A stretch of DNA of 64,000 nucleotides. It comes from an uncultured Eubacteriales bacterium. GTDB taxonomy: Bacteria > Actinomycetota > Coriobacteriia > Anaerosomatales > PHET01. Where the stretch lies: assembly GCA_964500985.1 (NCBI GenBank), contig CAZCRB010000002.1, forward strand, positions 36-64,035, given 5' to 3'. The translations under genes and the position numbers were made by a program. The notes beneath the pieces were generated by a model. That model was not told the DNA's origin. It saw nothing but the letters and a program-made list of their open reading frames with translations, and did not search any database. Shown piece by piece: positions 42,695 through 62,549 of this stretch (positions are counted from its first letter, which is position 1; each line of letters begins with the position of its first letter).

Positions 42695-42741
42695 TTGTAA
42701 CTGTTGTTACGAACGATACTCGGCGCCCACAGGAGCGTCAA
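42695..42741 (-). promoter_or_regulatory. TPR-NHL (copy 1) promoter with palindromic operator
   Basis: TTGACG (42741-42736) N17 TATCGT (42718-42713); operator TTGTAACTGTTGTTACGA at 42695-42712. Confidence 0.75.
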
Positions 42742-42766: not shown

Positions 42767-43603
42767 CTAGGGAAGCTGCTTGACCACCTCGGTGATCGCG
42801 CTCTTGAGCGAGTCCGGCGAACCGCTCTTGACCGCCGCCATCTCCACGGCCACCATCACCGAGGCGTCCGTGAAGCCTACGACCGCGAAACGACGGCCAT
42901 CGGTACCGAAGTACACGTCGTGCCCGTTGACCTTGAAGGTCGCGGCGTCCTTGGGATAGCGCTGCTTGACCTGACTGGTCAGCGCCTTCTGCGCATCCGC
43001 GCCGGTCCGGAACTGCTCCGCCGAGATCACGAGCTGGACGACATCGGCGTTGCCGGCCGGCAGGTACTGACGCGTGACGGACAAGGCATCGTTGGCTGCC
43101 TTTCGCGCGGTGTAGCCCGTGATCGCATCGGGAACCCACGCCGCCAACGCACCATTGGGCGTGACCCCCGGATCCGGCGTGGACGTGGGATTCTTGGTCC
43201 CACCCGAGCCCGACGACCCCTTGTCGGATGTCGGCGACTTGCCGGCGTTGATCGCGTCGAGCTGGGATGCGGCGCTCTTGAAGCCGGCGTCCCCGGCGAC
43301 AACCGCGGCGAGCTTCTCTTTGGCGGTGGTCAGATCGCCCGCCGCGAGCGCGCTCTGTGCCTGTGCATAGAGGGCCTCGAGCTTGCGATGCTTGTCGCAC
43401 ACGATCGTCTTCTCCTTGACGCGGTACTTGGCCGCGTCCTTCGAAGGTACCTCGATGGTGCGCACGCTGTCGGAGACCTCGTGCCCGTAGGTGCACATGA
43501 CGCGCTCGCCGGTCTGAACCTCGACTTTGCGCTGACACCCGGCGAGCGAACCCGCGCTCAGCGCGAGAACGAGTGCGAGCACCGCGAGCAGTGGTCTTCT
43601 CAT
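42767..43603 (-). CDS. Lipoprotein, paralog of 29280..30074
   Basis: Lipobox LAGC after ATG 43603 (ATGA overlap with the upstream gene); C-terminal YFGTDGRRFAVVGF. Confidence 0.8.
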   Translation of the reverse strand: MRRPLLAVLALVLALSAGSLAGCQRKVEVQTGERVMCTYGHEVSDSVRTIEVPSKDAAKYRVKEKTIVCDKHRKLEALYAQAQSALAAGDLTTAKEKLAAVVAGDAGFKSAASQLDAINAGKSPTSDKGSSGSGGTKNPTSTPDPGVTPNGALAAWVPDAITGYTARKAANDALSVTRQYLPAGNADVVQLVISAEQFRTGADAQKALTSQVKQRYPKDAATFKVNGHDVYFGTDGRRFAVVGFTDASVMVAVEMAAVKSGSPDSLKSAITEVVKQLP

Positions 43604-45045
43604 CCCTGGTCCTTCCGCGGCCCGCGCGCGAGCAGCGCGAGCGCAATCGAGAACACCGCGGCGGCCGCACCGACCACGCACGACACGAGTGCGACGGGCG
43701 CGGCCACGGGTTCGAGAACAAGAGCAGCATACTCCGTGCCGTAAGCCTGCTGAACCTCGGCCGGCACAAACGAACTCCACGTCTGAAGCGTGACGGCAGT
43801 GAGCATCGGGTACGCGGCAGCGCACGCCAACGACGCGATTCCCGCCGAGACGACCGCGCCGGTCGAGCGCTCAGGCAGCGCGAGGGCAGCGGTCAGCGCA
43901 AGCGCGCACGCTGCGAAGACCAGCCATCCGCCCGCCGACGCGTACCCCGGCTGCAGCCACGTTCCGCTGAAGAACGCCTCGCCGGTCCCCCGCCCCTCGG
44001 CTGTGGCGCGGATCGCCGGCAGGAACAGGGCCACAGACGAGCCGACGAAGGCCACGGACGCGATGGCGATGGCGATGGCTGCAAGGTTGCGTCGGCCACG
44101 GCCGATCTTGTCGACTGACCGGGATGGCGCCTGCGCGAACCAGACCGCCGCCGCGGAGGCGAGCACCGCCGCAGCTCCGGACAACGCGCCGGCCCACGAA
44201 ACGGGATCGGGACCGAAAGACGCCGTCGCCTTCTCCAGCAGGGTCAGCGCGCTGACCGCGACCGGAGCGACGAGCAGGGCCGTTGAGGCGCGCGCTACAC
44301 CCTGCGCGCCGACGGACCGGACCCACCCCATGGCGAACACCGCGACCGCCAACCCCAGCGCGATGAGTCCTGGCCAGGCGCGCTCAAGGGACGTGGACTG
44401 CCCTGCGACCGCAGGGAGCGCCCAGAGCAGTGCCGGAACCGCCGCGCCGATGACCGCCAGAGCGACGGTGCGACGTGCGCCGATTCTGAGCGCCACCACC
44501 CGCAGAGAGATCGACGCGACCGCAAACGCCGCACCCGCGGCGAGCATGACCAGCTCGGGCACTGGGAACTTGATGAAGGGCGAGAACGAACTCGGGCGCT
44601 CCCAATTGGCGAGCAGCGCCGCTGAGCCCGCCAGTGCGCCGACGGCACCCGCAATCCCCGAGAGTGCCGTGCGAGGCTTGTGGGCGAAGAACGCCAGCGC
44701 CACGCACAGAGCGCCCCACGCCACCGTGGTGAAGAACAGGACCTCGGAGCCGGACGGCGCATCGCTGGACCGCTGGGCAAGGGCGATGAGGGGGGCGGCC
44801 CAGAACGCGGTGGCGCCCGCCACTACGGCGAGGACGAGCTCGGAACGGCTTTGCGCCCAGAGCGACCGCATCGGCACGAGGCCCTCAGCGATCAGGACCA
44901 CGACCAGAGCCACTCCCAGAGACGCCCCCAGTATCAGGGCGTCCGGAAGACCTTCCATGAGGACCGTCGTGATGACGAATGTCGCCGCCGCCCCGACGAG
45001 GGACGAAGCGATTGCCAGAAGGTGTTTGGGGGCGAATCGGGCCAC
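43600..45045 (-). CDS. Polytopic membrane protein, EamA/DMT-like with C-terminal extension
   Basis: About 13-14 hydrophobic segments; GVARASTALLVAPV DMT-like motif. Confidence 0.65.
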   Translation of the reverse strand: MARFAPKHLLAIASSLVGAAATFVITTVLMEGLPDALILGASLGVALVVVLIAEGLVPMRSLWAQSRSELVLAVVAGATAFWAAPLIALAQRSSDAPSGSEVLFFTTVAWGALCVALAFFAHKPRTALSGIAGAVGALAGSAALLANWERPSSFSPFIKFPVPELVMLAAGAAFAVASISLRVVALRIGARRTVALAVIGAAVPALLWALPAVAGQSTSLERAWPGLIALGLAVAVFAMGWVRSVGAQGVARASTALLVAPVAVSALTLLEKATASFGPDPVSWAGALSGAAAVLASAAAVWFAQAPSRSVDKIGRGRRNLAAIAIAIASVAFVGSSVALFLPAIRATAEGRGTGEAFFSGTWLQPGYASAGGWLVFAACALALTAALALPERSTGAVVSAGIASLACAAAYPMLTAVTLQTWSSFVPAEVQQAYGTEYAALVLEPVAAPVALVSCVVGAAAAVFSIALALLARGPRKDQG

Positions 45046-45141: not shown

Positions 45142-46446
45142 CTACTTGTTGTGGCAGGACTCGCACACGCCCCGGTTGTCCAGGCGCAACAGCGCGCTGG
45201 GGCTGGCCGGGAACTGGTTGCGGGCGACGCCGTCAGTGTCGACGACGAGGGTGCCCGTGGCCGCGTAGCCCGTCATCGCTGCCGCAGTACCGTGGGCACG
45301 GTGGCAGGTCAGGCACTCGATCCAGTCACTGTCCGTCTTGGCGGGTGCGCCGACGGTCGAGGACTCGTTGAGCGAGTTGGCAAGCGGGATCGGCAGCGCA
45401 CCGATCACCATGGACGACTTGTCAGGACCGTTGTAGGTGCTGAGCTCGACGTTCATGGGGTGGCGGTGGCGCAGACGGTAGTTGCCGCCGTCGCCAGCGT
45501 CGTACATGGTCGCGGAGGCCGCGTACGTAGTGCCATCGGAGCGCGTGATCACGCGAACCGGCTGCAGGTACGTGCTGTGGCACCCGGTGCACCAACCGCT
45601 CATGCCCTTGGTCGGGTCCTCGACGAGGTTGCCTGCGGCAGCCTGCTTCATGTCGTAGCCCTTGGCGTAGCGCGGCGTGGTGTAGTCAGGCTGGTAGCTC
45701 GGGTAGGCCGTGTGCAGGCGGAAGCCGCCGGCGGGCCAGCCGCGCTCAGTCGACGAGACGAAGCCGTCGGGATCCGGGTTCACCGAGCTGTTGGTGTTGT
45801 CGTAACCACCCACGCGGTTGCCGTTGACCATCGACTTCAGGATGCGGTAGTTGGCGCTGCCGTGCGGGTCGTGGCAGGTCGCACAGTCCATCTTGACTGC
45901 GGTCGACTCACCCTTGTCGCGCGGCTTGCCGTTGGTCGGATCGGTACCAGGCGAACCATCAGTGGTCGCGTCGGTGGCCGACTTGCCGTAGTAGCCACCG
46001 CCGTACGCACCCCACGACGCACCCTGGTACATGTGCACCGAGGAGACCGGCACGGTGACCGTGGCCCCGAGCGAGGTGTCGTACTTCTGCATGGTGCTGA
46101 AACCGCCGCCGTTGAGGACACCGTTCTGGACACCGTAGAGCGTGCCCTCGTAGATGCCGTTCTCGACGTTGGTGTCGGCGCCCTGCGCGCTGCCGTCGTG
46201 GCAGGCGTAGCAGAACTGGTACATCTCGGTCGCGGTGCTCACGAGCAGTGCGCTGTGGTCGTTCGCGCCAGCGTCCTGCCACGTGATCGAGCTGACGGAG
46301 GTGTGCGCCCGGTGACAACCGGCACATGCGTCGGTATCGGCCACGTAGTTGCCGTGGATCGCGAAGTTGGCGTTCGCGGCGACAGGGACCATGAGCGCCA
46401 CGAGGGCGGCCAGGGCGAATGCGAGTGCGAATCTCTTGGTAGTCAT
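45142..46446 (-). CDS. Secreted OmcS-like hexaheme cytochrome c (formate dehydrogenase module)
   Basis: Signal peptide; 6 CxxCH in 434 aa; HGN..CAGCHRAH, CHDPHG..YRIL, MSGWCTGCH, RHP, CLTCHRAH; C-terminal CESCHNK. Confidence 0.82.
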   Translation of the reverse strand: MTTKRFALAFALAALVALMVPVAANANFAIHGNYVADTDACAGCHRAHTSVSSITWQDAGANDHSALLVSTATEMYQFCYACHDGSAQGADTNVENGIYEGTLYGVQNGVLNGGGFSTMQKYDTSLGATVTVPVSSVHMYQGASWGAYGGGYYGKSATDATTDGSPGTDPTNGKPRDKGESTAVKMDCATCHDPHGSANYRILKSMVNGNRVGGYDNTNSSVNPDPDGFVSSTERGWPAGGFRLHTAYPSYQPDYTTPRYAKGYDMKQAAAGNLVEDPTKGMSGWCTGCHSTYLQPVRVITRSDGTTYAASATMYDAGDGGNYRLRHRHPMNVELSTYNGPDKSSMVIGALPIPLANSLNESSTVGAPAKTDSDWIECLTCHRAHGTAAAMTGYAATGTLVVDTDGVARNQFPASPSALLRLDNRGVCESCHNK

Positions 46447-46449
46447 GCC

Positions 46450-47388
46450 CTACACCTCCCCACCGGTCAGCGCTTCGGACTCGTTCTTGGTCCGGCGGGC
46501 GGAAAGCGCCGCAAGACCGCCGACGACGAGCGTCGGCAGGAGAAGCTTAGCACCAGTGCCCGACAGCATGCTCGACGCCATCGGAGCGACGTGATCCTCG
46601 ATGAACGGATCAGCCTTGGGCGGCGCGAGCAGGAAGTTCTTGCTCGCCCAGAACATCGAACCGCTACCGATCCAGTTCTTGGTGCCGGCGGCGGGACCCG
46701 AGGTGAGGGTGTAGCCGTTGGCCGGATCCTCGAGGTACTTGATGATGTTGTCGCGGGCGTCCCACTTCATCGCCTTGGCCGGGCAGCTCGACACGCACGC
46801 CGGCTCATGAGCGAGCTCGGGCACGATCGGCACCGGCAGCGCGCCGGTGCTCAGAGTGATGCTGCTGACCCAGTTGCCCGAGGCGTCCTTCACGGCACGC
46901 GTGGGCAGGGCGGTCGCGGGATCGACCACGCCATCGGCGCCGGCGCGACCGTTGCACAGGGTGCACTTGTTCATCTTGACGTCGGTGGTGTCCTCGTAAG
47001 CGACGCCGACCTTGGGATAGCCGCCGCGCTGACAGCCGAACTCACACGGCTTGGGACCCGGGCCCACTTTGCAGACGTTGGGCTTGCACAGCGCCTTGTC
47101 GACGCTGACCGCACCGGTTGCCTCTTTCTTCATGGCACCGAGCGGGCAGGCCTTGACGCAGGGCGGGTCGTAACAGTGCCAGCAGGTGTAGCGCATGAAC
47201 GCGCCCATATCCGAACGCTTGAGGCTCTTGATCGCCAGCCGCTGACGCGGGTTGACGACGGAGCGCTGCGGGATCACCTGGGCGATGTTGTCGGGGTTCT
47301 TGAGACCCCACTCGCGCTTACAGGCGATGACACAGCCGTTGCAGCGCATGCACTTATCGACATCCTGGAATACTGCCATCACAGTCAT
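46450..47388 (-). CDS. fdhB: Formate dehydrogenase iron-sulfur (beta) subunit with C-terminal TM
   Basis: CMRCNGCVIAC, CWHCYDPPCVKACP and KCTLC..PACVSSCP motifs; C-terminal hydrophobic helix as in FdnH. Confidence 0.85.
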   Translation of the reverse strand: MTVMAVFQDVDKCMRCNGCVIACKREWGLKNPDNIAQVIPQRSVVNPRQRLAIKSLKRSDMGAFMRYTCWHCYDPPCVKACPLGAMKKEATGAVSVDKALCKPNVCKVGPGPKPCEFGCQRGGYPKVGVAYEDTTDVKMNKCTLCNGRAGADGVVDPATALPTRAVKDASGNWVSSITLSTGALPVPIVPELAHEPACVSSCPAKAMKWDARDNIIKYLEDPANGYTLTSGPAAGTKNWIGSGSMFWASKNFLLAPPKADPFIEDHVAPMASSMLSGTGAKLLLPTLVVGGLAALSARRTKNESEALTGGEV

Positions 47389-47401: not shown

Positions 47402-50400
47402 CTACATCTTCTCGAGTCGGCAGAGACAGGCCTTGAACTCAGGGATCGTCGTGTTCGCGTCCATCGCGTCGATGGTCAGGTCGTTCGCCCGCGAACCGGT
47501 CGACAGACCCTGCTCGCCCCAGTGCCACGGAATTGCCACGACACCCTGGGCCACACGCTGGTTGGACTGGATTCCCACGCCGACACGGGCGACGAAGCCC
47601 TTGCCGTAGTTGTCGAGCGCGTTGACGACGCCCTGGGCGTTGGTGTTGCCGTCGGTGCGGGCGGTGACGACCTTGACGTAGTCGCCATCCGCGATGCCGA
47701 GCAGGCGTGCGTCGACGTTGTTGAGCTCGATCCACGGCTCCGGCTCGGCCTCGACGTTCCACCAGTTGTTACGGGTGATGGGGCCGCCCTGGAAGTGCTC
47801 GACGCACCGGATGGTGGTCAGCACCAGCGGGTACTTGCTCGGCTTACCGATGGTCGTGCCGTCGTAGATCAGGTTCAGAGGACCGGCAGCCTGGATAGCG
47901 GTGCTATCGGCGCTGTTGTAGCCCCAGACCAGATCGCCGAGGTCATCGGCGCGCGGAGTCTCGTACGGCTCGGTGTGCGCCGGGAAGCGACCGGGCTCGA
48001 CGTGGATCGCCGGAGCGGTCCCGTTTGCGAGATACGGCTTGTCGGCGAGCACGTGCGAAGTCGGCGCAAGGATCGTGCGGTACCAACGCGAGTAGTTGTA
48101 GATCGTCGTGCCGGTGGGAGCCCACGCGCTCTGGCCCTTCGGGGAGAAGAGGCGCACGCACGAGTCCGGACCCATGAAGAAGTCCGACTGGTCACCGACG
48201 ACTTCGGCGTTGTTGTACAGCACGCGGCGGTTGACGAGCCACGAGTAGCCCCACTTGTGGGAAGCGAGGGTGCCGTACGGATCCTGGCGGTCACGGCTCT
48301 TGGAGCGGTTCGAGACTTCCCAGGTGCTGTAGGCGCCGTAGAGGCGACCCATGCCCTTGGCGGTGTCGTAGCCCTCCGTGTAGATCCAGATCGTACCGCC
48401 GGCAGAGACGCTGCTCGTGTACTCGCGGAACACCATCTCAGCGACGAACTCGGAGCCCTGGACCTTGGTTGAGGTCGCGGGGTTGAGCGCGGCGTAGGTG
48501 GTGCCGGCGCCGGTCCACGCACCAGGCGTGGCGTAGTCGATCGTCAGGCCGGTCGTGTCGCTGCCTGCCGCGGTGAACGCAACCGCGCCACCGGGAGTCC
48601 AACCGTACGGCGTGCCGTAGAGGTTGGCGTAGGCGGCCTTGGAAGCCCAGCCCTGGACGGACTCGATGTGAGCGAAGCAGTCAGCGTCGTTGAGCGCCTT
48701 GGCGAACCGGAGCAAGAGCTCGTTGTCGTCCTTGCTGTTGCCCTTGGGGTCAACGGCCTTGTAGCGCCACTGCAGGGTACGACCGGAGTTCGTGGCCGCG
48801 CCCGCCTTCTCGACGTGGGCCGCCGACGGGATCAGGTACGTGACACCCGTGCACTTGCGGGACACCGCAGCGGTCTCGTTCATGAACATGTCGACGCAGA
48901 CGAGCGTGTCGAGGTTGTAGAGCCCCTCGCGGACCTTCGCCTGGTTCGGCTCGGTGACGGCGGGGTTCTGTCCCCACACGACGAGCGACTGGATGCGGGT
49001 CGCGTCGGTGTGCGTCATGTACCTGAACATCTTGATGTGGTTGAAGCCGTTGCCCTTGGGCCACAACGAGTACGCCTTGTCCACGATGGCGCGCCGTGCG
49101 GCGAGCGTGGTGGCGCTGGTCGCAGCGGAGTATCCGCCGAACCACTTGAGCGTCATGTTGTAGAACCCGCGCTGTTGCAGCTGCATGGCGCCCGTGTTGT
49201 AGGCGTCGTCGTAGCTGTTGTCCATCTTGGAACGCACGGTGCCGCTGAAGTCAGTGGTCCCGGTGGTTCCGGACAGAGGCAGGCCCCACAGCCCGTCCAT
49301 GTACTTGCCGAACGCCTTGTTGGTGTCCGTACCGTCCACGGCCGTGACCTGGGTGCCCGGGTTGCCCGAGTAGCCGGGGATGTTGCCGTAGAGCAGGCCC
49401 ATGTCCGTCGAACCCTGGACATTGTGGATGCCGCGCAGCGCGTTGATGCCGCCGCCGGCGCGTCCCGTGTTGCCCATCATCGACTGCAGGTTGGCCATTG
49501 CCTTGACGTTCTGCGCACCGTAGGTGTGCTGCGTCAGACCCATGGCGTACAGGATCGTCGTGGCGCGGTAGCCGGCCTGCGGTGCCTGGTCGGTATCGAC
49601 CGTGTAGGTGACGAGAACCTTGTCGCCTGCGTTGATGCCGCCCGCGACGGCGACGCGCTTGAGCGTGCCGAGCGAACGCGAGTTGGTACCGGCGACCACG
49701 GTGTAATGCGTACCGGCCGTGTAGGTGGTCAGACCATCAAGGCTCTTGACCGAGGCAACGGACAGGTTCCAGCCCCACATCGGCACCGCGTCAGGAACGC
49801 CGGCGGTGTCGGTCAGGCGCACCACGCGGTCGGTGAACGTGACGTTCGACGACACGGAGGAGCAGCGGCTGTTCTGGATGATCGCGTCACCGACGAGCGC
49901 GATGTCGGCGACCGTGCAGCCGCAGATGTCGGCAACGACGGTGTCACTGTAGGCGGCAAGGTGCTGCTTCATGCGCGAGAACACCGTGCCGGCGGCGTCA
50001 CACGCGGCGGCCTTCTTGGGGAAGTTCGAGATCAGCAGGTTGTTGGTCTCGGTGCCCAAGGGGGTTCCGCCGGTGGTGGTGACGGTACCGCGATCGTAGT
50101 CCGTGCCGTTGAGCATGAACCGCGCGTCGGTGTACTTGGAGCTGCCCGCCACGGTGGCGACCTGCGTGCTCGCGTGCGTTGCGTCGCCGTCCGTGAAGAA
50201 CGTGCCGTTGCCGCTCTGGTTCAGGTACGCCCAGTACTCGGTCTTCGTGGCGGCGGGGATCTCGGTGCCGTCAGCGAAGTACGTCGTCTGGTCGGTCCGC
50301 ATCTTCTCGATGATGTAGGCCATCACGCCGTTGGCCAACGCGATGTCGGTTCCGGGACGGATGCGGACGTAGTCATCGGCCTGCAGCGCGGTGCGCGTCT

Positions 50401-51283
50401 TGCGGGGGTCGATGACGATGAAGCGCGCAGGCTTCTTGTTGGCACGGTCACCCGAGAAGTACTGCTTGGGGAAGCGTGCGCGGTTGACGTGCGCCATGCA
50501 CGCCGGGTGGTTCTCAGTGGGGTTGGCACCCCACGCGATAACGAGCGAAGCATTGGCGATGTCCGCCCAATGGTTCGTCATCGCGCCTCGTCCGAATGCG
50601 GCGGCCAGACCGGCCACCGTGGACGAGTGTCATATACGGGCCTGATGCTCGACGTTGCTGGTACCGAAGTTCGCGATGATCTTGCGGTACAGGTAGTTCG
50701 ACTCGTTGTTCATGTGCGAACTACCGAGGAACGCAACGGTCTTGCTGTTGTACTTCATCGAGCCCGGCACCCAGTTGGTGGCGTCGGCGTCACGCGCCGT
50801 CTTGAGGCGAGTGGCGATATCGGCCAGCGCGGTGTCGATCGGCACGGCGGACCAAGGGCCATCGCCGGTGCGCTTGTACGCGATCGGGTTGCTGGTGCCG
50901 TCGGCCGCGAACACGTTGTCGACCGGGTGCGTGCCCGTGAACGCGCCGATACGGCGCGGGTTGTTCACGAGCTGGAGCGCCCCTGCGCCCTTGGCACACA
51001 GGCCGCCCGAGTTCATGGGCGACTCGAAGTCACCGTAGACGTCTACAACGACCGTCGGGTCGGATTTCTTGACGACGACGCGCTGCCCGCAGCTTGCGGA
51101 GCAGTACGGGCACGTCGTCGTGGTGATCTGGTAGTCAGCTGAGTTCTCGTACGCGGACGCCTTTTCAGGATCGTACGCGAACTCGAGGCCGCAACCGACC
51201 ACCGCGGTGGCAGCTGCGGCGGTTTTGATGAAGTCACGCCTGGTGACCCCACCAACCGGCTGCCCGGTGTCCCTAGTTGCCAT
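47402..51283 (-). CDS. fdhA: Selenocysteine-containing Mo/W formate dehydrogenase alpha subunit (Tat-exported, 1293 aa, Sec218)
   Basis: ORFs 50630..51283 and 47402..50617 are in frame across TGA 50632-50630 in EHQARI-U-HSSTVAGLAAAFGRGAMTNHW. Tat motif TRRDF; CPYC..C..LCAKG; ALRGIHNVQG; EFKACLCRLEK. Confidence 0.95.
50587..50627 (-). other. SECIS element of fdhA
   Basis: CTCGTCC-A-CGGTGGCC-GGTCT-GGCCGCCG-CATTC-GGACGAG directly after the UGA; GGUCU loop as in the fdhF-type SECIS. Confidence 0.88.
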
Positions 51284-51426
51284 ACCTCGTTCCCTTCCGA
51301 GTCATGGACATGGCATGTATGGCTTGCGAGAAAACTGAGCTCCCACCCCTCACCGGGGCGTTGCTCGGCGCCGGCCTGAGCCAGCCCTCCTTTCCGTGCA
51401 GTGTGGTGCCGTGCCTGCGGGAGCGG

Positions 51427-51480
51427 ACAACAAAAAGACCGGCATCCGAGACAGCCGTAGGCCGTACCCATGCTCCGGTC
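51427..51480 (-). terminator. Leader (attenuator) terminator upstream of fdhA
   Basis: GACCGG..CCGGTC stem followed by TTTTTGTTGT, about 145 nt upstream of the start codon. Confidence 0.6.
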
Positions 51481-51599
51481 GAAGAACACATATGCGGACG
51501 AGCCTCCCTTACCCTGGGTCGTAGCGCGACAACGAGCGGGCCATTGCCGGTGGCTTCCACTCAGGACTCCCCGTTTGCCGGCGAGAAGCCCGTCGCGCC

Positions 51600-51698
51600 G
51601 ATTCTCTTTCCAAGGCGGGAGGCGCCACCGTTTCCAGTGACACCCTATCGGCCCGAGTACCGTGGCAAGACGCGGTAGGTCGCGGGGGCTCGAGAATC
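51600..51698 (-). ncRNA. Molybdenum/tungsten cofactor (Moco/Tuco) riboswitch, P3-less type
   Basis: P1 GATTCTC/GAGAATC; AGGG, P4 with GAAA loop (GTCACTG-GAAA-CGGTGGC), GCCTCCC, TGGAAAG; located in the leader of a molybdopterin enzyme. Confidence 0.82.
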
Positions 51699-51754
51699 GT
51701 CCATATCCTGTTGTATCAAGCGGTCGCACTGCTCGTCGAAGAGACTTCTGTGCC

Positions 51755-51815
51755 TTGTAACACGAGTTACAAGTACCGCACGTTCACCTTACTCTCGGGC
51801 GCAACCCCGCGTCAA
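51755..51815 (-). promoter_or_regulatory. FDH operon promoter with palindromic operator
   Basis: TTGACG (51815-51810) N18 TAAGGT (51791-51786); perfect-arm operator TTGTAACACGAGTTACAA at 51755-51772. Confidence 0.75.
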
Positions 51816-51842: not shown

Positions 51843-53402
51843 TTACGAGGGGGACGGCTTGGCCCCTTTACCGCTGCCGAGGTACATCGACTTGAACTCC
51901 TCGACGTCGACCACGCGCACGTCGGCGAGCACGCCGATCCTGCGCAGGTCGCGGTCCTCGGTGCCGAGTGCGCGTGCGCGCTGGGCCATGGAGACCACGA
52001 TAGCCTCACGCTGGGCCACATCGAGACGATCGACGAGCGCACGGGCGTCGGACTCGGAGTACTGCTCGAACTCTATGAGCTCGGTCAGCGTGACACCGTC
52101 GACCACCTTGCCCTCGTAGGCCGCGAGGTCCTCTTCCGGTGCCACCAGGCGCAGTCTGCGGCGATCAGCGACCGCGCGGATCTCGCCGGCTGCGGCGAGT
52201 GAGTCGACGAAGTCGGGCGTCACGACGATGCGGACACGGCGGCGCAGGAGCAGCAGCGGGAGGAGGAGCAACGGCGACAGGCACAGCAGCCAGCCGAGCG
52301 GCGTGGTGGGGGCGGCGACCGCAGGCGGCTGCGCGACCGGCCAGCCCCAGACCTGGACCTGGTTGTTGTCGCGGTCGGTCACGTAGATGCGCGCCCCGCT
52401 CACGGCGACGTCGTTGGGATAGTTGAACTGCCCGGGGCCGAAGCCCTGGCTGCCGAACTGCGTGAGCCGCTTGCCGTCGAGGTCGTAGACGTCGACGGTG
52501 TGCGCGACGGCATCGACCGCGTAGAGACGCTGCTTGGCATCGATGGCGATACCGCGCGGTATGCCCGAGGTGTCGACGAAGCGCTTGAACTCGCCCTTCT
52601 CGTCGAACACCTGGACCCGGCGGTTGTCACCGTCGGAGACGAAGATCTCCCCGCGTCGCGAGACGGCCAGGCCGTTGGGGAAGTAGAAGCCGCCGGGAGA
52701 CTCCTCGGCAGACTTGACCTGTACGGTCTTGCCGACGGTCGCCGTGCGGCTGCCGTCTTCACTGAAGATCATCAGCTGGTGCTTGCTGGTGTTGTCCACG
52801 TCGGTGACGCGCAGCGCGCCGGCGCTGTCGAACGTGAGTGCGAGCGGCGTCCAGTCGAGCGTCTCGTTCTTGGGCTCGAACATCTTCTTGAACGCGCCCT
52901 GCGTGCTGAAGATGACGATGTTGCGAAGTCTGCGGTCGGTGACCCACACCTCGTCGCCCTTGACGGCGAGATGCACGGGGCTCTGCAGGTTGCCGTCGGC
53001 CGTCTTGGCGAACGAGCGCACGTAGCGGCCGTTACGGGTGAACGCGCTGATGCGGTTGTGGCCGAAGTCCGCGACGAACACGGTCTGCCCGTCGGTGGAC
53101 ACGCCCACCCCGATCGGGCGATCGAGCGCGCTTGCTCCCTGCCCGGTGATCGAGAAGAGGTACTGCGGCGGGTCGATCATCGCCTCAGGTGCGGCTATGT
53201 CGACGCTGGGCAGTCTGCGGTTCTGGATGAAGTAGTAGGTGGAGTACGCGAGCAACGCCAGGAGCACGACGAGCAGCGACAGCAGCAGGATGCGCTTGCG
53301 CACCTCACGCTTGGTCAACTTCGGCCTCCCCTGTGTGCGGGGAGCCTCCGGCTGCGGCGGAACCTGTGGTGCGTTCGTGGCGGACATCTCGTCAGGAGCC
53401 AT
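51843..53402 (-). CDS. NHL-repeat beta-propeller protein with two TM anchors and a PIN-like tail (copy 2)
   Basis: Same architecture as 40042..41559, including GWLLCLSPLLLLPLLLL and SESDARAL..TEDRDLRR. Confidence 0.85.
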   Translation of the reverse strand: MAPDEMSATNAPQVPPQPEAPRTQGRPKLTKREVRKRILLLSLLVVLLALLAYSTYYFIQNRRLPSVDIAAPEAMIDPPQYLFSITGQGASALDRPIGVGVSTDGQTVFVADFGHNRISAFTRNGRYVRSFAKTADGNLQSPVHLAVKGDEVWVTDRRLRNIVIFSTQGAFKKMFEPKNETLDWTPLALTFDSAGALRVTDVDNTSKHQLMIFSEDGSRTATVGKTVQVKSAEESPGGFYFPNGLAVSRRGEIFVSDGDNRRVQVFDEKGEFKRFVDTSGIPRGIAIDAKQRLYAVDAVAHTVDVYDLDGKRLTQFGSQGFGPGQFNYPNDVAVSGARIYVTDRDNNQVQVWGWPVAQPPAVAAPTTPLGWLLCLSPLLLLPLLLLRRRVRIVVTPDFVDSLAAAGEIRAVADRRRLRLVAPEEDLAAYEGKVVDGVTLTELIEFEQYSESDARALVDRLDVAQREAIVVSMAQRARALGTEDRDLRRIGVLADVRVVDVEEFKSMYLGSGKGAKPSPS

Positions 53403-54396
53403 CGGTCACCCGTTTCAGTCCCGCTTCTGCGTCCTTGTTGCCCGGGTCCGCCGCCAACGCGCGACGGTACGCGAGCGCTGCCGCGTTCAGGTTCTTGCTC
53501 TGTTCGTAGAGCTGGCCCACCGCGAGCAGCGCAGGCGCCGACGCCGGATCGAGCGCTGCGGCGACGCGAGCCTCTACCAGCGCGGCCTTGGGGTCACTCG
53601 CTTTGAGGCTCTGCGCCTTGGCCAGACGCGCGCTGACGGTTCCCAGCTTCGCGAGCGCCTCAGCCGGCTTCTCGGCCTTGGGCGCCGAGTCCGCGGAGGT
53701 GCGGAAGTGCTCGGCTGCGCCCGCGACGTCACCGTCGGCGAGAAGCACGTTGCCGTAGTCGTAGTTGGCCTCGGGCATCTTGGGGTCGAACAGCAGCGTC
53801 GCCTCGAGCTCCTCGCGGTACTCGTCTTCGCTGCCGAGCTCGCGGAAGCAGACGGCGAGCGCGTAGTGGGAGTCGGACGCGTCACGGCGGATGCGGATGG
53901 CCTCCTTGAAGTTGCGCGCGGCCTCCTCGTACTCCTTCTGCTCCATCAACGCGGTGCCCAGATAGAAGTACGCGGTCTCCAGCTCGGCGTTCTGCCGGGT
54001 CATGTCCGTGCCCTGGAGCAGGTCGACGACCTTCTGGAAGTAGTTCTCACCGACCTTGTACTGCTTCTGCTTCAGCGCGATGAACCCGAGACCGGACAGC
54101 GCCGGCGCGTAGTCCTTGCGCACCTTGAGGATCTGCTCGTACTGCGTGGCGGCCTCGCGGTCGCGCCCGGCGACCGAGTAGGTCTGGGCGAGGCGCATAC
54201 GCGTGTCGATATCGTTGGGATTGGCGCGTACCTGCGCGATGAGCCCGCCGATGGCTCGAGCCGCCGGCGTGGAAGCCTCCACCGTGCGATTGCTCTGCCA
54301 TACCGAGTAGCCGAGAAAGACGCCGAGCCCCAGAACGAGGACGGCGACGACCGCGATGGCGGCATCGAGAGGACGTACCGACTTCAGGTCGGGCAC
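53392..54396 (-). CDS. Membrane-anchored TPR protein (copy 2)
   Basis: N-terminal TM; TPR repeats (LLFDPKMPEANYDYG); AAGGAG RBS before GTG 54396. Confidence 0.88.
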   Translation of the reverse strand: MPDLKSVRPLDAAIAVVAVLVLGLGVFLGYSVWQSNRTVEASTPAARAIGGLIAQVRANPNDIDTRMRLAQTYSVAGRDREAATQYEQILKVRKDYAPALSGLGFIALKQKQYKVGENYFQKVVDLLQGTDMTRQNAELETAYFYLGTALMEQKEYEEAARNFKEAIRIRRDASDSHYALAVCFRELGSEDEYREELEATLLFDPKMPEANYDYGNVLLADGDVAGAAEHFRTSADSAPKAEKPAEALAKLGTVSARLAKAQSLKASDPKAALVEARVAAALDPASAPALLAVGQLYEQSKNLNAAALAYRRALAADPGNKDAEAGLKRVTDGS

Positions 54397-54466
54397 GCGA
54401 AGCACTCCTTACCCTGTGAGCGCCGGGCCTGCCGGGGCCCGTGCGGCGCGCATCGTTTCGAGATCG

Positions 54467-54504
54467 AATCTAGCGACGCGCCAACATTGTGTCAATTGTT
54501 ACGA
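54467..54504 (-). promoter_or_regulatory. TPR-NHL (copy 2) promoter with palindromic operator
   Basis: TTGACA (54495-54490) N17 TAGATT (54472-54467); operator TTGTGTCAATTGTTACGA at 54487-54504 covers the -35. Confidence 0.7.
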
Positions 54505-59466: not shown

Positions 59467-59515
59467 TTGTAACAGCAGTTACGAGCAGAATAGGCACGGC
59501 GAGCGCGAGTGTCAA
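59467..59515 (-). promoter_or_regulatory. Cytochrome b/multiheme operon promoter with palindromic operator
   Basis: TTGACA (59515-59510) N17 TATTCT (59492-59487); operator TTGTAACAGCAGTTACGA at 59467-59484. Confidence 0.8.
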
Positions 59516-59538: not shown

Positions 59539-59784
59539 TCACCGATCGGTGATCTCGGCACGCACGGCCACCGCGATCTGGGCGTTGGAAAGGTAGCGCT
59601 CGGCCCTCTCGGCGTCCGCTACCTCGACGCGCAACGCGATACCGCAGGTGGCAGAGACCGAGGCCGGGGCGGGGATGGGCACGACGTCGATTCCCATGTC
59701 GTCGAGAAGCGCCTCGGCATCGAGCGCGTCATGGGTGGACGCGAAGCCGTAGACGATGAAGGGCCGCTCGCCGGCGGCGCTCAC
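59539..59784 (-). CDS. DUF3343 family protein (putative Se/S carrier-like)
   Basis: FASTHDALDAE..VVPIPAP..SATCGIALR pattern. Confidence 0.8.
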   Translation of the reverse strand: MSAAGERPFIVYGFASTHDALDAEALLDDMGIDVVPIPAPASVSATCGIALRVEVADAERAERYLSNAQIAVAVRAEITDR

Positions 59785-60962
59785 GAGAGCTCACCGACCA
59801 GCTCGCGCAACGCGGACAGTGCCGCAGCGACGTCGTAGCGCGTGTTGCCGTAACCCAGCCCGAACCGCAGGGCCCCGCCACCGAGCGTGCCGAGCGTCTC
59901 GTGCGCCCAGGGAGCACAGTGCAGTCCGGCGCGCACCGCGATGCCGAACCGGCGGTCGAGCGCGAAGGCGAGACGGTCGGCATCGATCGCGGGGTGGACG
60001 GCCGAGACGACCGGCACACGGGGCTCGCCAGGCTCGGGACCGAGAACGCGGAACCCCAGCTCGAGCAGCCCGACGAGCAGGTCCTGTGTGAGGCGGGCCT
60101 CGGCCGTGCGCTGTTCGGCGGCGTGCTCGGCCAGCCAGCGCACGGACGCGCCGAGACCGAGGATGCCGGGGGTGTTGGGCGTTCCCGCCTCGTAGCGGTC
60201 GGGACGCGCCGTGGGCTGGAGCGGCTCCTCGCTTCCGCCGGAACCGGTGCCGCCGGTGACGAGCGGGTCGGCGTCGACGTGACCCGCGAGGTAGAGCACG
60301 CCGATGCCCTGCGGACCGAGCAGGCCCTTGTGGCCCGAGCAGGCCCAGGCATCGACACCCAGGGCGGCCAGGTCGACCGGCAGGTGCCCGCCGGCCTGGG
60401 CGCCGTCGACCACGAGCAGCGCATCGTGCGCGTGCGCGACGTCGGCGAGATCAGCGATGGGCTGGATCGCCCCGGTCACGTTGCCGGCGTGCTGGGCGAT
60501 GACGGCGCGGGTGGGGGCGGCGCGGACCGCGGACTCGAGCTCGTCGGCATCGACGACGCCGGCCTCATCGGTCTGGACGACGACGACCTCGACACCGCGC
60601 GCGACCAGCGTGTTGAGCGGGCGTGCGACGGCGTTGTGCTCGACCGACGTCGTCACCACGCGGTCACCGGGTCGGACCAGCCCGAGGATCGCGAGGTTGG
60701 TGGCGTAGGTGCAGCCGGGCTGGAACAGCAGGTCGTGGGTATCGGGCACCCCGAGGAAGGCGGCGATGTCGCGGCGGGCCGCATGGATGGCGCGCGTCGT
60801 CTGCAGCGCGAGGCGGTAGGCACCGCGCCCGGGGTTGCCGCCGTAGGTCACCACGGAGCCGGCGAGCGCCTCTGCGACGCCCGGCGGCTTGGGCCACGAG
60901 GTGGCGCCGTGATCGAGGTAGATGACCTCGCGCGTGTCCGGGCCGGCGGCGTCCGACGACAT
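59781..60962 (-). CDS. Class V PLP aminotransferase; cysteine desulfurase/selenocysteine lyase-like
   Basis: YLDHGATSWPKP, VEHNAV, VDGAQ, SGHKGLLGPQG, EAGTPN and RAGLHCAP motifs. Confidence 0.9.
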   Translation of the reverse strand: MSSDAAGPDTREVIYLDHGATSWPKPPGVAEALAGSVVTYGGNPGRGAYRLALQTTRAIHAARRDIAAFLGVPDTHDLLFQPGCTYATNLAILGLVRPGDRVVTTSVEHNAVARPLNTLVARGVEVVVVQTDEAGVVDADELESAVRAAPTRAVIAQHAGNVTGAIQPIADLADVAHAHDALLVVDGAQAGGHLPVDLAALGVDAWACSGHKGLLGPQGIGVLYLAGHVDADPLVTGGTGSGGSEEPLQPTARPDRYEAGTPNTPGILGLGASVRWLAEHAAEQRTAEARLTQDLLVGLLELGFRVLGPEPGEPRVPVVSAVHPAIDADRLAFALDRRFGIAVRAGLHCAPWAHETLGTLGGGALRFGLGYGNTRYDVAAALSALRELVGELS

Positions 60963-61448: not shown

Positions 61449-61495
61449 GCCGCTCTCCCCTGGCCGGACCGGCGGCATCGGCCGCCGGCGCGTGT

Positions 61496-62547: not shown

Positions 62548-62549
62548 GC

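What the first reader, a model, noticed from the sequence alone, without database searches (positions are those of the whole stretch)
51600..51698. P3-less Moco riboswitch suggests a tungsten-cofactor-sensing FDH operon
The conserved core (AGGG, GAAA-capped P4, GCCUCCC, UGGAAAG, P1) is present, but P2 runs straight into AGGG with no P3 stem. Established: Moco-motif RNAs lacking P3 were proposed to sense tungsten cofactor. The operon would then be under both operator and cofactor control, and the hexaheme gene would be co-regulated with it.
Basis: partly seen in the sequence, partly recalled or inferred. Interest (0 to 1): 0.62.

Follow-up and report, generated by a model that had tools for sequence, protein, structure and literature searches.

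The report
P3-less pterin-cofactor riboswitch before formate dehydrogenase
A genuine molybdenum/tungsten-cofactor riboswitch of the type that lacks stem P3 lies in the long leader of a selenocysteine formate dehydrogenase operon of an uncultured actinobacterium; relatives put the same RNA type in front of tungstate-transporter genes, so tungsten-cofactor sensing is plausible but unproven.

Summary
Rfam RF01055 matches window 51707..51587 on the minus strand (57.6 bits, gathering score 36), and the P3 hairpin is cleanly deleted. It lies 303 nt upstream of a Tat-signal, selenocysteine (TGA plus SECIS) formate dehydrogenase alpha gene. That gene is followed by an FeS subunit, a hexahaem cytochrome c and a roughly 15-helix membrane protein.

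The element is conserved. 23 of 25 related loci, all uncultured Coriobacteriia/Actinomycetota MAGs, carry a P3-less aptamer at the same place. 18 of 27 base pairs show compensatory changes.

The tungsten reading is partly supported:
- In five of these MAGs, four on the same contig 12-18 kb away, a TupA-type tungstate-binding gene sits behind the same P3-less aptamer.
- In 104 sampled P3-less aptamers, tungstate-transporter genes outnumber ModA 35 to 2.
- The nearest solved enzymes are tungsten formate dehydrogenases.
- No tup, wtp or mod gene lies in the window, and metal specificity cannot be computed.

The leader also holds a promoter, a Rex-like palindromic operator (five sites in the window), a Shine-Dalgarno-like box complementary to aptamer strands, a short leader ORF, a conserved intrinsic terminator and a second structured domain. 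My best inference is an ON switch that works through leader-ORF translation across the terminator. The polarity is unresolved.

This is a new member of a known kind, of moderate interest.

The parts
51587..51707 (-). P3-less RF01055 (Moco/Tuco) riboswitch aptamer. P1 is 51696..51692 paired with 51606..51602; P2 carries the CCUA receptor bulge; P4 is capped by GAAA; P5 is present; P3 is absent.
   Evidence: 57.6 bits, P3 positions deleted; 27 pairs, 18 with compensatory changes across 35 clade aptamers.
51786..51815 (-). Putative promoter: -35 TTGACG (51815..51810), an 18-nt spacer, then -10 TAAGGT (51791..51786).
   Evidence: TTGAC and TAnnnT blocks are conserved in the alignment of 24 leaders. 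The stricter sigma-70 consensus scan found nothing, so this rests on conservation only.
51755..51772 (-). Palindromic operator TTGTAAC-TCGT-GTTACAA, just downstream of the putative -10, with Rex-like geometry.
   Evidence: Conserved in most of the 24 leaders. Five sites in the window against 0.11 expected, all upstream of minus-strand respiratory operons.
51503..51514 (-). Purine box GGGUAAGGGAGG. It resembles a Shine-Dalgarno site. It is complementary to the aptamer core GCCUCCC and, together with its 3' flank, to the P1 5' strand.
   Evidence: GGGUAAGG is almost invariant in the leader alignment: exact in 22 of 24 loci, GGGGUAGG in the other two. Matched-locus duplexes beat mismatched ones (-11.2 against -9.5 kcal/mol, permutation p 0.0002).
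51273..51491 (-). Leader ORF: ATG at 51491, 72 codons, stop TAG at 51275..51273 overlapping codons 3-4 of the formate dehydrogenase gene. It runs through the terminator.
   Evidence: 23 of 24 loci have ATG or GTG within about 12 nt 3' of the box (in a few it abuts or overlaps the box's 3' end). The ORF (10-72 aa) reaches or crosses the terminator's 5' strand in every locus checked. The peptide sequence is not conserved. Translation has not been shown.
51429..51480 (-). Intrinsic terminator: hairpin GACCGG...CCGGUC (51480..51437) followed by UUUUUGUU (51436..51429).
   Evidence: A hairpin of -23 to -35 kcal/mol plus a U-tract is present in all 24 loci. Six of the 7 base pairs at the stem base covary. 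Pairing probability is 0.96-1.00 with or without P1 forced.
51339..51424 (-). Post-terminator structured domain closed by the helix GCUCCC (51424..51419) : GGGAGC (51344..51339). It contains a second SD-like GGAAAGGAGG that has no start codon.
   Evidence: The closing helix covaries among loci: GCUUCCG:CGGAAGC, GUCGC:GCGAC, GCGGAU:AUCCGC (read from the alignment). No Rfam family matches, even at E<=5. Function unknown.
47402..51283 (-). Formate dehydrogenase alpha subunit, 1293 codons. It has a Tat signal (RRDFIK) and an in-frame TGA at 50632..50630 (motif HQARI-U-HSSTV), followed by a SECIS-like hairpin with a GGUCU loop.
   Evidence: best PDB matches are D. vulgaris FdhAB (about 1e-97) and D. 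gigas W-FDH 1h0h (1e-95), ahead of E. coli FdnG (8e-85).
46450..47388 (-). Formate dehydrogenase beta subunit (4Fe-4S dicluster domains).
   Evidence: Fer4_11, Fer4_7. Syntenic in the related loci.
45142..46446 (-). Hexahaem cytochrome c (6 CxxCH, signal peptide). It starts 3 nt after the beta subunit's stop, so it is probably co-transcribed.
   Evidence: syntenic in the related loci.
43600..45045 (-). Polytopic membrane protein (about 15 hydrophobic segments, no Pfam match), conserved downstream partner and a candidate membrane anchor.
   Evidence: Homologues follow the cytochrome gene in most of the related loci that extend that far.

Best explanation
**What is shown.** The feature is a bona fide P3-less member of the Moco/Tuco riboswitch family (RF01055). 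It lies in the roughly 500-nt 5' leader of a periplasm-facing, selenocysteine-containing formate dehydrogenase operon: alpha, beta, hexahaem cytochrome c and a membrane protein. The organism is an uncultured Coriobacteriia (Anaerosomatales-like) bacterium that also encodes multihaem cytochromes and a NiFe hydrogenase. The aptamer, its position and the modules around it are conserved across the clade. In the same clade the same aptamer type sits directly on the ribosome-binding site of TupA-type tungstate-transporter genes.

**What is inferred.**
1. The ligand is the metal-loaded pterin cofactor made from the anion that the Tup transporter imports, that is the tungsten form (Tuco). One signal would then shut off uptake and gate the enzyme that consumes the cofactor.
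2. Gating works through the conserved box GGGUAAGGGAGG. Without ligand the box pairs with the P1 5' strand or the aptamer core. With ligand the closed aptamer releases it.
3. The released box acts as the Shine-Dalgarno site of a short leader ORF. A ribosome translating that ORF across the 5' arm of the conserved intrinsic terminator stops the hairpin from forming. Transcription then reads into the formate dehydrogenase gene, which makes this an ON switch: the apoenzyme is made only when cofactor is available.
4. A Rex-like operator just downstream of the putative -10 adds a second, protein-mediated input shared with neighbouring respiratory operons.
For: **Aptamer.**
- RF01055 at 57.6 bits against a gathering score of 36, with P3 deleted.
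- Present in 23 of 25 related loci.
- 18 of 27 pairs show compensatory changes, and nothing occupies the P3 position.

**Target gene.**
- Tat signal, bis-PGD oxidoreductase domains, and TGA plus a SECIS-like hairpin.
- Nearest solved structures are the tungsten enzymes of D. vulgaris and D. gigas.
- Synteny is conserved.

**Tungsten link.**
- L038 lies on the same contig as FDH locus L020. It carries a P3-less aptamer directly upstream of TupA-like, TupB-like and ATPase genes.
- TupA orthologues (63-77% identity) lie on the contigs of L016, L023, L025 and L020 and in the MAG of L002.
- All 11 close orthologues (L147-L157) have a P3-less RF01055 hit (46-65 bits). In most of them the P1 3' strand GGAAAGGAG is followed within a few nt by AUG.
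- The TupA-like protein matches the tungstate-binding proteins 3lr1 and 5my5 at about 1e-60 and keeps the TTS and SRGD motifs.
- Among 104 sampled P3-less aptamers, the first downstream gene is TupA-like in 27, WtpA in 1, WtpB in 4 and WtpC-like in 3, against ModA in 2.
- Literature: PMC2408646 and PMC11725836.

**Platform.**
- Conserved modules in the leader alignment.
- The unconstrained minimum-free-energy fold pairs the box with the aptamer core or the P1 5' strand in the 8 leaders folded, and is 3-15 kcal/mol more stable than the P1-forced fold.
- The box flank covaries with the P1 5' flank.
- A start codon follows the box in 23 of 24 loci, and the ORF runs into the terminator.
- The terminator is present in all 24 loci.
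Against: - No tup, wtp or mod gene was found in the genes annotated in the window. By synteny tupABC would lie a few kb beyond coordinate 64000. The window's own genome could not be extended.
- The TupA-like proteins score below NCBIfam's equivalog cut-off (199-230 bits against 400).
- P3-less aptamers precede ModA-family genes in L144 and L118, so P3 loss is not an exclusive marker of tungsten.
- Neither Moco nor Tuco has ever been shown to bind these RNAs directly. Deleting P3 from the E. coli RNA simply inactivated it (PMC2408646).
- Polarity is weakly supported. The terminator is predicted to form with probability 0.96-1.00 in both states. Computed accessibility of the box differs little between the states (0.44 against 0.38).
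- One locus (L003) has no start codon after the box. In a few loci the box-to-AUG spacing is 0-3 nt.
- The leader peptide is not conserved, and no transcript or ribosome data exist.
Confidence: 0.55

Rival explanations
1. The aptamer is the same, but the polarity is opposite. Cofactor binding turns the operon OFF, like all characterised Moco/Tuco riboswitches. In one version the enzyme is a Mo-dependent (or metal-promiscuous) formate dehydrogenase that is switched off when the tungsten cofactor is plentiful and another, tungsten-dependent isoenzyme takes over.
For: - Every Moco/Tuco riboswitch with experimental or comparative support so far is an OFF switch: E. coli moaA in PMC2408646, and focA and fetABC1 in PMC11725836.
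- Regulski et al. explicitly proposed Tuco-mediated repression of Mo-enzymes to explain their exceptions.
- One MAG (PHET01) carries two paralogous FDH loci, L013 and L025.
- A terminator downstream of an aptamer is the classic OFF design.
- My accessibility calculation does not separate the two states clearly.
Against: - An OFF switch needs an antiterminator in the ligand-free state, and none is predicted. The terminator forms with probability of at least 0.96 in all 24 leaders, with or without P1.
- The element that competes with the aptamer is the SD-like box, not a terminator strand.
- Repressing a cofactor-consuming enzyme when its cofactor is abundant only makes sense if an isoenzyme exists. 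That has not been shown for the window's genome.
Confidence: 0.25
2. The aptamer senses the molybdenum cofactor, or does not discriminate between Mo and W forms. On this view, loss of P3 is a lineage or architecture variant with no bearing on metal specificity, and the enzyme uses Mo.
For: - Two P3-less aptamers in Actinomycetota/Coriobacteriia MAGs precede ModA-family genes that score above the TIGR01256 cut-off.
- Three sampled P3-less aptamers precede a molybdopterin-dependent aldehyde oxidoreductase of the xanthine-oxidase family.
- The Anaerosomatales description annotates the homologous enzyme as molybdenum-containing and never mentions tungsten (PMC9686372).
- No direct ligand-binding data exist for either subclass (PMC2408646).
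Against: - In this clade the same aptamer type controls TupA-type genes, not ModA-type genes, next to the FDH cluster.
- Tup and Wtp components outnumber ModA 35 to 2 in the sample.
- ModA-class proteins also carry tungstate (argued in PMC2408646).
- The closest solved enzymes are tungsten enzymes.
Confidence: 0.25
3. The riboswitch and terminator form a separate unit, yielding a short attenuated or trans-acting leader RNA. Formate dehydrogenase expression would then be set mainly by the second structured domain and the operator. The leader ORF would be a by-product of a GC-rich sequence.
For: - The terminator is predicted to form in all states.
- A covarying helix closes an about 85-nt domain between the terminator and the FDH ribosome-binding site.
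- Long open frames are common at 67% GC.
- The leader peptide is not conserved.
Against: - ATG or GTG is kept within about 12 nt 3' of a near-perfect SD in 23 of 24 loci while the flanking bases vary. By rough estimate an ATG would occur by chance in about 12% of such windows.
- No promoter-like block is conserved after the terminator.
- The distance and order of the modules are conserved across loci whose FDH alpha N-terminal fragment is only 54-78% identical.
Confidence: 0.1

Closest known systems
Moco/Tuco riboswitch, Rfam RF01055 (E. coli moaA Moco RNA; Regulski et al. 2008, PMC2408646)
   Same: It has the same conserved core: P1, P2 with the tetraloop receptor, GAAA-capped P4, P5, and the AGGG / GCCUCCC / GGAAAG junction. 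It scores well above the family threshold. It sits upstream of a gene for a pterin-cofactor enzyme.
   Different: There is no P3. The E. coli RNA has P3 and needs it. The E. coli platform hides the moaA ribosome-binding site inside P1. Here the regulated gene starts 303 nt away, behind a box, a leader ORF, a terminator and a second structured domain.
P3-less 'Tuco' riboswitches of Eubacterium limosum (WOR1, tupABC, two Fe transporters, focA; PMC11725836)
   Same: It belongs to the same P3-less subclass. The clade also uses one aptamer type for both a tungstate transporter (tupABC) and a pterin-cofactor enzyme operon. Both transcription-terminator and RBS-occluding platforms occur within one clade.
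   Different: In E. limosum the formate dehydrogenase has no riboswitch. Here the FDH operon is the target. The lineage differs (high-GC Coriobacteriia against Firmicutes). The platform proposed here involves a leader ORF and would be ON rather than OFF.
Translation-coupled attenuation, in which a ribosome on a leader ORF blocks an intrinsic terminator (E. coli pyrBI type; named from general knowledge, not tested here)
   Same: A short ORF with a strong Shine-Dalgarno site runs into the 5' arm of an intrinsic terminator. Its translation would prevent termination.
   Different: Here initiation of the leader ORF would be gated by a riboswitch aptamer that competes for the Shine-Dalgarno box, not by RNA polymerase pausing or charged-tRNA supply. 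The resemblance is one of mechanism only and is an inference.
Periplasmic W/Sec formate dehydrogenases FdhAB of Desulfovibrio vulgaris (6sdr) and D. gigas (1h0h), and E. coli FdnGHI (1kqf)
   Same: It shares the Tat-exported bis-PGD catalytic subunit with selenocysteine in the HQAR(I/V)-U-H motif, and an FeS beta subunit.
   Different: The alpha subunit is about 290 residues longer, with large insertions. The electron acceptor encoded next door is a hexahaem cytochrome c plus a roughly 15-helix membrane protein, not a cytochrome b (FdnI) or a soluble cytochrome c3.
Rex operator (TTGTGAA-W4-TTCACAA; PMC2883068)
   Same: It is an 18-bp palindrome with the same spacing and the same outer TTGT...ACAA. 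It lies in front of several respiratory operons in the window.
   Different: The inner half-site bases differ (AAC/GTT instead of GAA/TTC). No Rex gene was looked for. A CRP/FNR-type regulator (TGTA-N8-TACA) would fit equally well.

Membership tests
Rfam RF01055 Moco/Tuco riboswitch | Covariance-model score at or above the curated gathering score (36 bits) over the full model | tested here: met
   57.6 bits, E 3.4e-11, model positions 1-135, not truncated. It is the only credible hit when the region is searched at E<=5.
Rfam RF01055 Moco/Tuco riboswitch | Helices P1, P2, P4 and P5 supported by covariation | tested here: met
   RNAalifold on 35 clade aptamers gives 27 pairs, 18 with compensatory double changes.
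Rfam RF01055 Moco/Tuco riboswitch | Conserved junction nucleotides and the GNRA tetraloop/receptor pair (GAAA on P4, CCUA bulge in P2) | tested here: met
   CCGAG, CCTA, GGG, GGAAAC, GCCTCCC and GGAAAG columns are invariant or nearly so in alignment A1, and all are present in the window sequence.
Rfam RF01055 Moco/Tuco riboswitch | Location in the 5' leader of genes for pterin-cofactor synthesis, transport or use | tested here: met
   It lies 303 nt upstream of a bis-PGD formate dehydrogenase gene on the same strand. The position is conserved in 23 loci.
Rfam RF01055 Moco/Tuco riboswitch | Direct, selective binding of the cofactor and ligand-dependent gene control | not testable with these tools
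   This needs genetics or biochemistry. Even for the E. coli RNA, direct binding has not been shown (PMC2408646).
P3-less ('Tuco') subclass of RF01055 | Absence of the P3 hairpin between P2 and P4 | tested here: met
   The model's P3 positions are deleted. Only 3-6 nt lie between P2 and AGGG in all 35 clade aptamers.
P3-less ('Tuco') subclass of RF01055 | The organism carries tungstate-transport genes (tupA/tupB or wtpA), the criterion of Regulski 2008 | tested here: inconclusive
   None was found in the genes annotated in the 64-kb window. The window's genome could not be extended. The criterion is met in five related MAGs, on the same contig as the FDH locus in four.
P3-less ('Tuco') subclass of RF01055 | The regulated enzyme uses the tungsten rather than the molybdenum cofactor | not testable with these tools
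   The nearest solved structures are tungsten enzymes, but metal choice cannot be read from sequence.
P3-less ('Tuco') subclass of RF01055 | The subclass is associated with W-related and not Mo-specific genes | tested here: inconclusive
   In the sample of 104, Tup/Wtp components number 35, ModA 2 and Mo-type aldehyde oxidoreductase 3. The bias is strong but there are exceptions. No P3-containing control set was scanned.
Selenocysteine formate dehydrogenase (FdnG/FdhA type) | Tat signal, bis-PGD domains, in-frame UGA in the HQAR-U-H motif, with a SECIS hairpin | tested here: met
   RRDFIK signal, PF00384 plus PF01568, TGA at 50632..50630, and a hairpin with a GGUCU loop immediately 3'. The same ORF split is seen in the related loci.
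Leader-ORF (translation-coupled) transcription attenuation | Shine-Dalgarno site plus start codon of a short ORF that overlaps an intrinsic terminator | tested here: met
   The box UAAGG(G)AG(G) with ATG or GTG within about 12 nt 3' of it occurs in 23 of 24 loci. The ORFs of 10-72 aa reach or cross the terminator's 5' arm.
Leader-ORF (translation-coupled) transcription attenuation | The leader ORF is translated, and its translation changes termination | not testable with these tools
   No RNA-seq, term-seq or ribosome data exist for this organism. Only a 161-nt cDNA contig spans the T-tract.
Rex regulon operator | An 18-bp palindrome TTGTGAA-N4-TTCACAA bound by Rex, with a rex gene in the genome | not tested
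   The geometry and outer bases match, but the inner bases differ. No search for rex was made.

The most novel reading that the evidence does not exclude
The leader would be a feed-forward ON switch of a kind not described for this riboswitch family. The tungsten-cofactor-bound aptamer releases a Shine-Dalgarno box. A ribosome then translates a short leader ORF across an intrinsic terminator, and only then is the formate dehydrogenase operon transcribed. The same cofactor would thus repress its transporter (tupABC, by RBS occlusion) and induce its consumer within one genome. A Rex-like operator and a second, unassigned structured RNA domain would add further inputs.
Probability: 0.3. Interest if true: 0.7.

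Novelty: new member of a known kind. Interest (0 to 1): 0.45.

Why it matters
**Tungsten enzymology.** If the P3-less aptamer does report the tungsten cofactor, this operon would be a tungsten/selenium formate dehydrogenase. It would be wired to multihaem cytochromes in a widespread subsurface lineage (Anaerosomatales-like Coriobacteriia). That bears on how these organisms couple formate oxidation to extracellular electron transfer, and on trace-metal needs when cultivating them.

**Riboswitch biology.** The clade offers a natural paired experiment. One aptamer type sits on two platforms in the same genome: RBS occlusion before tupA, and box, leader ORF and terminator before the FDH genes. This could settle two open points. 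The first is whether P3-less RNAs discriminate W from Mo. The second is whether this family includes ON switches.

**If the polarity is the ordinary OFF kind.** The finding then reduces to one more member of a known family.

Tried and rejected
- **Walking out of the window.** I tried to find tup or mod genes by looking up window proteins in the assemblies collection. Two MoaA start variants were not on record, and the FDH beta subunit returned only a 1.4-kb Logan contig. This was abandoned. Synteny in related MAGs was used instead.
- **RNA-only switch models.** I looked for an antiterminator that competes with the terminator. Neither minimum-free-energy folds nor partition-function folds, with or without P1 forced, ever disrupt the terminator. 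A classical antiterminator design is therefore rejected for both polarities.
- **Pairing of the CCGGCA(A) loops with the terminator.** The linker loops could in principle pair with the terminator's CCGG. I rejected this because loci whose terminator stem is CCAG/CUGG keep CCGG in the loop, so there is no covariation (read).
- **A second promoter at the conserved TTGA(C/A)A upstream of the aptamer.** No -10 lies at a workable distance, and transcription would start inside P1. Rejected.
- **The second SD-like GGAAAGGAGG after the terminator as another ORF start.** No start codon follows it. Rejected.
- **RNAalifold on the whole post-terminator region.** It returned no structure because of ragged ends. 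The closing helix was read by eye from the alignment and is reported as unexplained.
- **Public RNA runs.** Only fragmentary contigs of related organisms were found, which is not enough to map 3' ends.
- **Firmicute FDH leaders with P3-less aptamers (L037, L104, L142).** They have a different architecture, so they neither support nor contradict the model.
Full report
**1. The observation**

A scan of the whole window against Rfam 15 at gathering thresholds gives two hits: a tRNA and RF01055. RF01055 is the Molybdenum/Tungsten riboswitch aptamer, and it matches 51707..51587 on the minus strand. The score is 57.6 bits against a gathering score of 36, E 3.4e-11, over the full model.

In the printed alignment the model's P3 hairpin is deleted. 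P2 closes with GGGCC, and three nucleotides later the junction AGGG begins. P1 is UUCUC/GAGAA, a compensated variant of the usual UCUCC/GGAGA. The strand, which was not stated, is minus.

**2. What it controls**

On the same strand an ATG at 51283 opens a 1293-codon frame. It has these features:
- a twin-arginine signal, RRDFIK;
- the molybdopterin oxidoreductase and dinucleotide-binding domains;
- one in-frame TGA at 50632..50630, inside the motif HQARI-U-HSSTV;
- immediately after the TGA, a hairpin with a GGUCU apical loop, typical of a bacterial SECIS element.

Its best matches among solved structures are the W/Sec formate dehydrogenase FdhAB of Desulfovibrio vulgaris (about 1e-97) and the tungsten enzyme of D. 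gigas (1e-95). E. coli FdnG comes next at 8e-85.

The genes that follow are an FeS beta subunit, a cytochrome c with six CxxCH motifs that starts 3 nt after the beta stop, a protein with about 15 hydrophobic segments and no Pfam match, and then further genes.

The neighbourhood on the same strand is as follows:

| Position relative to the operon | Content |
|---|---|
| Upstream | NHL and TPR proteins, three multihaem cytochromes, a cytochrome b |
| Upstream, 59.8-63.9 kb | Cofactor-biosynthesis cluster: cysteine desulfurase, MoaB/MogA, a MOSC protein, MoaC, MoaA, MobB |
| Downstream | A second TPR/NHL pair and a NiFe hydrogenase |

**3. Conservation**

I used the 217-residue N-terminal fragment of the alpha subunit as a query against one genome per species. 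It found 25 loci. All are uncultured Coriobacteriia/Actinomycetota MAGs, apart from one distant Verrucomicrobia hit.

RF01055 is found upstream of the gene in 23 of them, at 51-72 bits. One of the other two is cut 18 nt before the gene, and the other is the distant hit. All aptamers are 118-132 nt long and lack P3. Gene order around them is conserved. An alignment of these 24 aptamers with 11 more from the same clade (section 4) yields 27 consensus pairs, 18 with compensatory double changes. Only 3-6 nt lie between P2 and P4.

The gene content matches what has been described for the cultivated Anaerosomatales, whose Parvivirga cluster joins multihaem cytochromes to a molybdopterin oxidoreductase (PMC9686372). 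The window's own genome is seen only in sludge metagenomes.

**4. Is it a tungsten-cofactor sensor?**

*The published basis.*
- 58 of 176 Moco RNAs lack P3.
- 17 of 19 organisms carrying them have tupA/tupB or wtpA.
- Deleting P3 from the E. coli RNA merely inactivates it, and binding has never been shown directly (PMC2408646).
- A 2024 study of Eubacterium limosum found five P3-less copies, before WOR1, tupABC, two iron transporters and focA (PMC11725836).

*In the window.* I found no tup, wtp or mod gene in the genes I annotated.

*A wider sample.* I scanned the species-representative genomes with a pattern specific to a P3-less junction, GCCG-N2-5-GGGT-N6-7-GGAAAC-N6-GCCTCCC. I clustered the first downstream ORF of 104 aptamers. 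One representative of each of the larger clusters, plus selected singletons, was named against NCBIfam, and the label was extended to the rest of its cluster:

| First downstream gene | Count |
|---|---|
| TupA-like | 27 |
| WtpA | 1 |
| WtpB | 4 |
| WtpC-like ATPase | 3 |
| MoaA | 7 |
| MoeA | 3 |
| Sec-type formate dehydrogenase N-terminal fragment | 4 |
| Molybdopterin aldehyde oxidoreductase | 3 |
| ModA | 2 |

*In the clade itself.*
- One hit, L038, is on the same contig as FDH locus L020, about 17.6 kb upstream. Its aptamer sits directly before TupA-like, TupB-like and ATPase genes, followed by a second such set.
- With that TupA as query, orthologues of 63-77% identity turn up on the contigs of L016, L023, L025 and L020 and in the MAG of L002.
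- All 11 close orthologues have a P3-less RF01055 hit of 46-65 bits.
- The protein matches the tungstate-binding proteins 3lr1 and 5my5 at about 1e-60. It keeps the STTSTQDSG and SRGDDSGTHK motifs.
- By synteny the window's own tupABC would lie a few kilobases beyond coordinate 64000.

In these organisms one aptamer type controls both tungstate uptake and this enzyme. That is what one expects if the ligand is the cofactor built from the imported anion.

*Caveats.* The two ModA cases are in Actinomycetota/Coriobacteriia MAGs. The TupA-like scores fall below NCBIfam's equivalog cut-off. The metal in the enzyme cannot be inferred from sequence.

**5. The expression platform**

The aptamer ends 303 nt before the start codon, and 206-337 nt before it in the relatives (usually about 250-265). 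The alignment of 24 leaders shows a fixed order of modules:

1. A -35/-10 pair, at 51815..51810 and 51791..51786 in the window.
2. The palindrome TTGTAAC-N4-GTTACAA (51772..51755).
3. A hairpin with a CCGGCA loop, and a conserved UUGA(C/A)A.
4. The aptamer.
5. A structured linker with CCGGCAA loops.
6. The box GGGUAAGGGAGG (51514..51503).
7. A start codon (ATG at 51491).
8. A long hairpin GACCGG...CCGGUC followed by a U-tract (51480..51429).
9. A domain of about 85 nt closed by a covarying helix (51424..51419 with 51344..51339).
10. The true ribosome-binding site.

*The terminator.* The hairpin plus U-tract is present in all 24 loci at -23 to -35 kcal/mol, and the base of its stem covaries.

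*The box.* It contains GGGAGGC, the complement of the aptamer core GCCUCCC. With its 3' flank it is also a longer complement of the P1 5' strand than the real P1 3' strand is. Unconstrained folds of the 8 leaders examined pair the box with one or the other of these partners, and they are 3-15 kcal/mol more stable than folds with P1 forced. Duplexes between the P1 5' flank and the box flank of the same locus are more stable than between different loci (-11.2 against -9.5 kcal/mol, permutation p 0.0002). The box is therefore mutually exclusive with the closed aptamer.

*What the freed box does is the uncertain step.* The terminator is predicted to form with probability 0.96-1.00 in both states, so no RNA-only antiterminator exists. 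The box reads UAAGG(G)AGG, a near-perfect Shine-Dalgarno sequence. 23 of 24 loci keep ATG or GTG within about 12 nt 3' of it, while the flanking bases vary. The ORF (10-72 codons, peptide not conserved) reaches or crosses the terminator's 5' arm. In nine loci it ends at a stop overlapping codons 3-4 of the FDH gene.

*My inference.* Ligand binding exposes the box. The leader ORF is translated, and the ribosome prevents terminator formation, giving an ON switch. This would make physiological sense beside the OFF design seen before tupA, where GGAAAGGAG of P1 is itself the ribosome-binding site and AUG follows within a few nucleotides in most copies.

*Weak points.*
- Computed accessibility of the box differs little between the states (0.44 against 0.38).
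- One locus has no start codon after the box.
- Some loci have very short box-to-AUG spacing.
- There are no transcript data.

The ordinary OFF polarity remains a serious rival. It could be combined with the idea that a Mo-type isoenzyme is repressed by the tungsten cofactor.

**6. The operator**

The palindrome occurs five times in the window with up to three mismatches, against 0.11 expected: at 39945, 42695, 51755, 54487 and 59467. Each site lies upstream of a minus-strand operon: hydrogenase, the TPR/NHL pairs, formate dehydrogenase, and cytochrome b with the multihaem genes.

Its geometry and outer bases match the Rex operator TTGTGAA-W4-TTCACAA (PMC2883068), but the inner bases differ. 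It also fits TGTA-N8-TACA, so a CRP/FNR-type regulator is not excluded. The regulator is unidentified.

**7. Verdict**

The feature is real, ancient within its clade and correctly identified. It is a new member of a known riboswitch family, in a lineage and before a gene class where it is not surprising.

The tungsten interpretation is plausible, and the comparative evidence gathered here has strengthened it. It remains a correlation.

The conserved platform of box, leader ORF and terminator could make this an ON switch, the first proposed for this family. That and the metal question are both directly testable in cultivated Anaerosomatales.

Noticed in passing
window 39945-39962, 42695-42712, 51755-51772, 54487-54504, 59467-59484: The palindrome TTGTAAC-N4-GTTACAA occurs five times (0-3 mismatches; 0.11 expected). 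Each site lies upstream of a minus-strand respiratory operon: NiFe hydrogenase, TPR/NHL pairs, formate dehydrogenase, and cytochrome b with multihaem genes. This looks like the regulon of one Rex-like or CRP/FNR-like regulator.
   Followed up: partly
window 51339-51424 (minus): Between the terminator and the FDH ribosome-binding site lies a domain of about 85 nt. It is closed by a helix (GCUCCC:GGGAGC) that covaries among loci, and it contains a second SD-like GGAAAGGAGG with no start codon. No Rfam family matches it. It may be a second regulatory RNA element.
   Followed up: partly
window about 51560-51575 and about 51735-51745 (minus), and the equivalent places in L001-L025: Hairpins with a conserved CCGGCA(A) loop flank the aptamer on both sides. 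The loop sequence is kept even where the terminator's CCGG has changed, so it does not pair with the terminator. Its function is unknown; it may be a protein-binding site or a tertiary contact.
   Followed up: partly
window 50520-50632 (minus): The in-frame stop in the FDH alpha gene is TGA. It is followed by a SECIS-like hairpin, CUCGUCC...GGCC-GGUCU-GGCC...GGACGAG. The same ORF split is present in the related loci, so the clade uses selenocysteine.
   Followed up: partly
window 47402-51283 (minus): The alpha subunit has 1293 codons, about 290 more than FdnG or FdhA. PDB homology is broken into four blocks, which implies large lineage-specific insertions (for example around residues 330-570 and 870-1000).
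   Followed up: no
window 43600-45045 (minus): A 481-residue protein with about 15 hydrophobic segments and no Pfam or other family match follows the hexahaem gene in most related loci that extend that far. It is a candidate novel membrane anchor or quinone-interacting subunit for the FDH/cytochrome complex.
   Followed up: partly
window 59781-63900 (minus): A cofactor-biosynthesis cluster: MobB-like, MoaA, MoaC, a MOSC-domain protein, MoaB/MogA and a class-V cysteine desulfurase. No RF01055 hit lies in the window upstream of it. In several relatives the MOSC-MoaB-desulfurase block directly abuts the TPR/NHL genes before the FDH leader.
   Followed up: partly
window 51843-54405 and 40042-42636 (minus): A TPR-protein/NHL-repeat-protein gene pair is duplicated, one copy on each side of the FDH operon. 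Each copy has an operator-like palindrome in front.
   Followed up: no
window 34770-39766 (minus): NiFe hydrogenase small (Tat signal) and large subunits are followed by a multihaem cytochrome c. This parallels the FDH-cytochrome arrangement.
   Followed up: no
L144:4418-5311 and L118:1135-1965: P3-less RF01055-type aptamers in a Coriobacteriia MAG and an Actinomycetota MAG are followed by ModA-family genes (TIGR01256, 92 and 83.5 bits, above the cut-off). These are exceptions to the rule that P3-less means tungsten.
   Followed up: partly
L038:59-7416: In a clade member the riboswitch-controlled tupABC-like operon is followed by a second TupA-like/TupB-like/ATPase set. The transporter is duplicated in tandem.
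   Followed up: no
window 51312-51472: A 161-nt contig from a soil cDNA run (X18, two mismatches) spans the terminator's 3' arm, the U-tract and the post-terminator region. This is a weak hint that read-through transcripts exist in a close relative.
   Followed up: no
L092 (two matches) and L072 (two matches on opposite strands): Tandem (L092) and divergent (L072) pairs of P3-less aptamers occur in other Actinomycetota MAGs. They recall the tandem arrangements described for Syntrophomonas wolfei.
   Followed up: no
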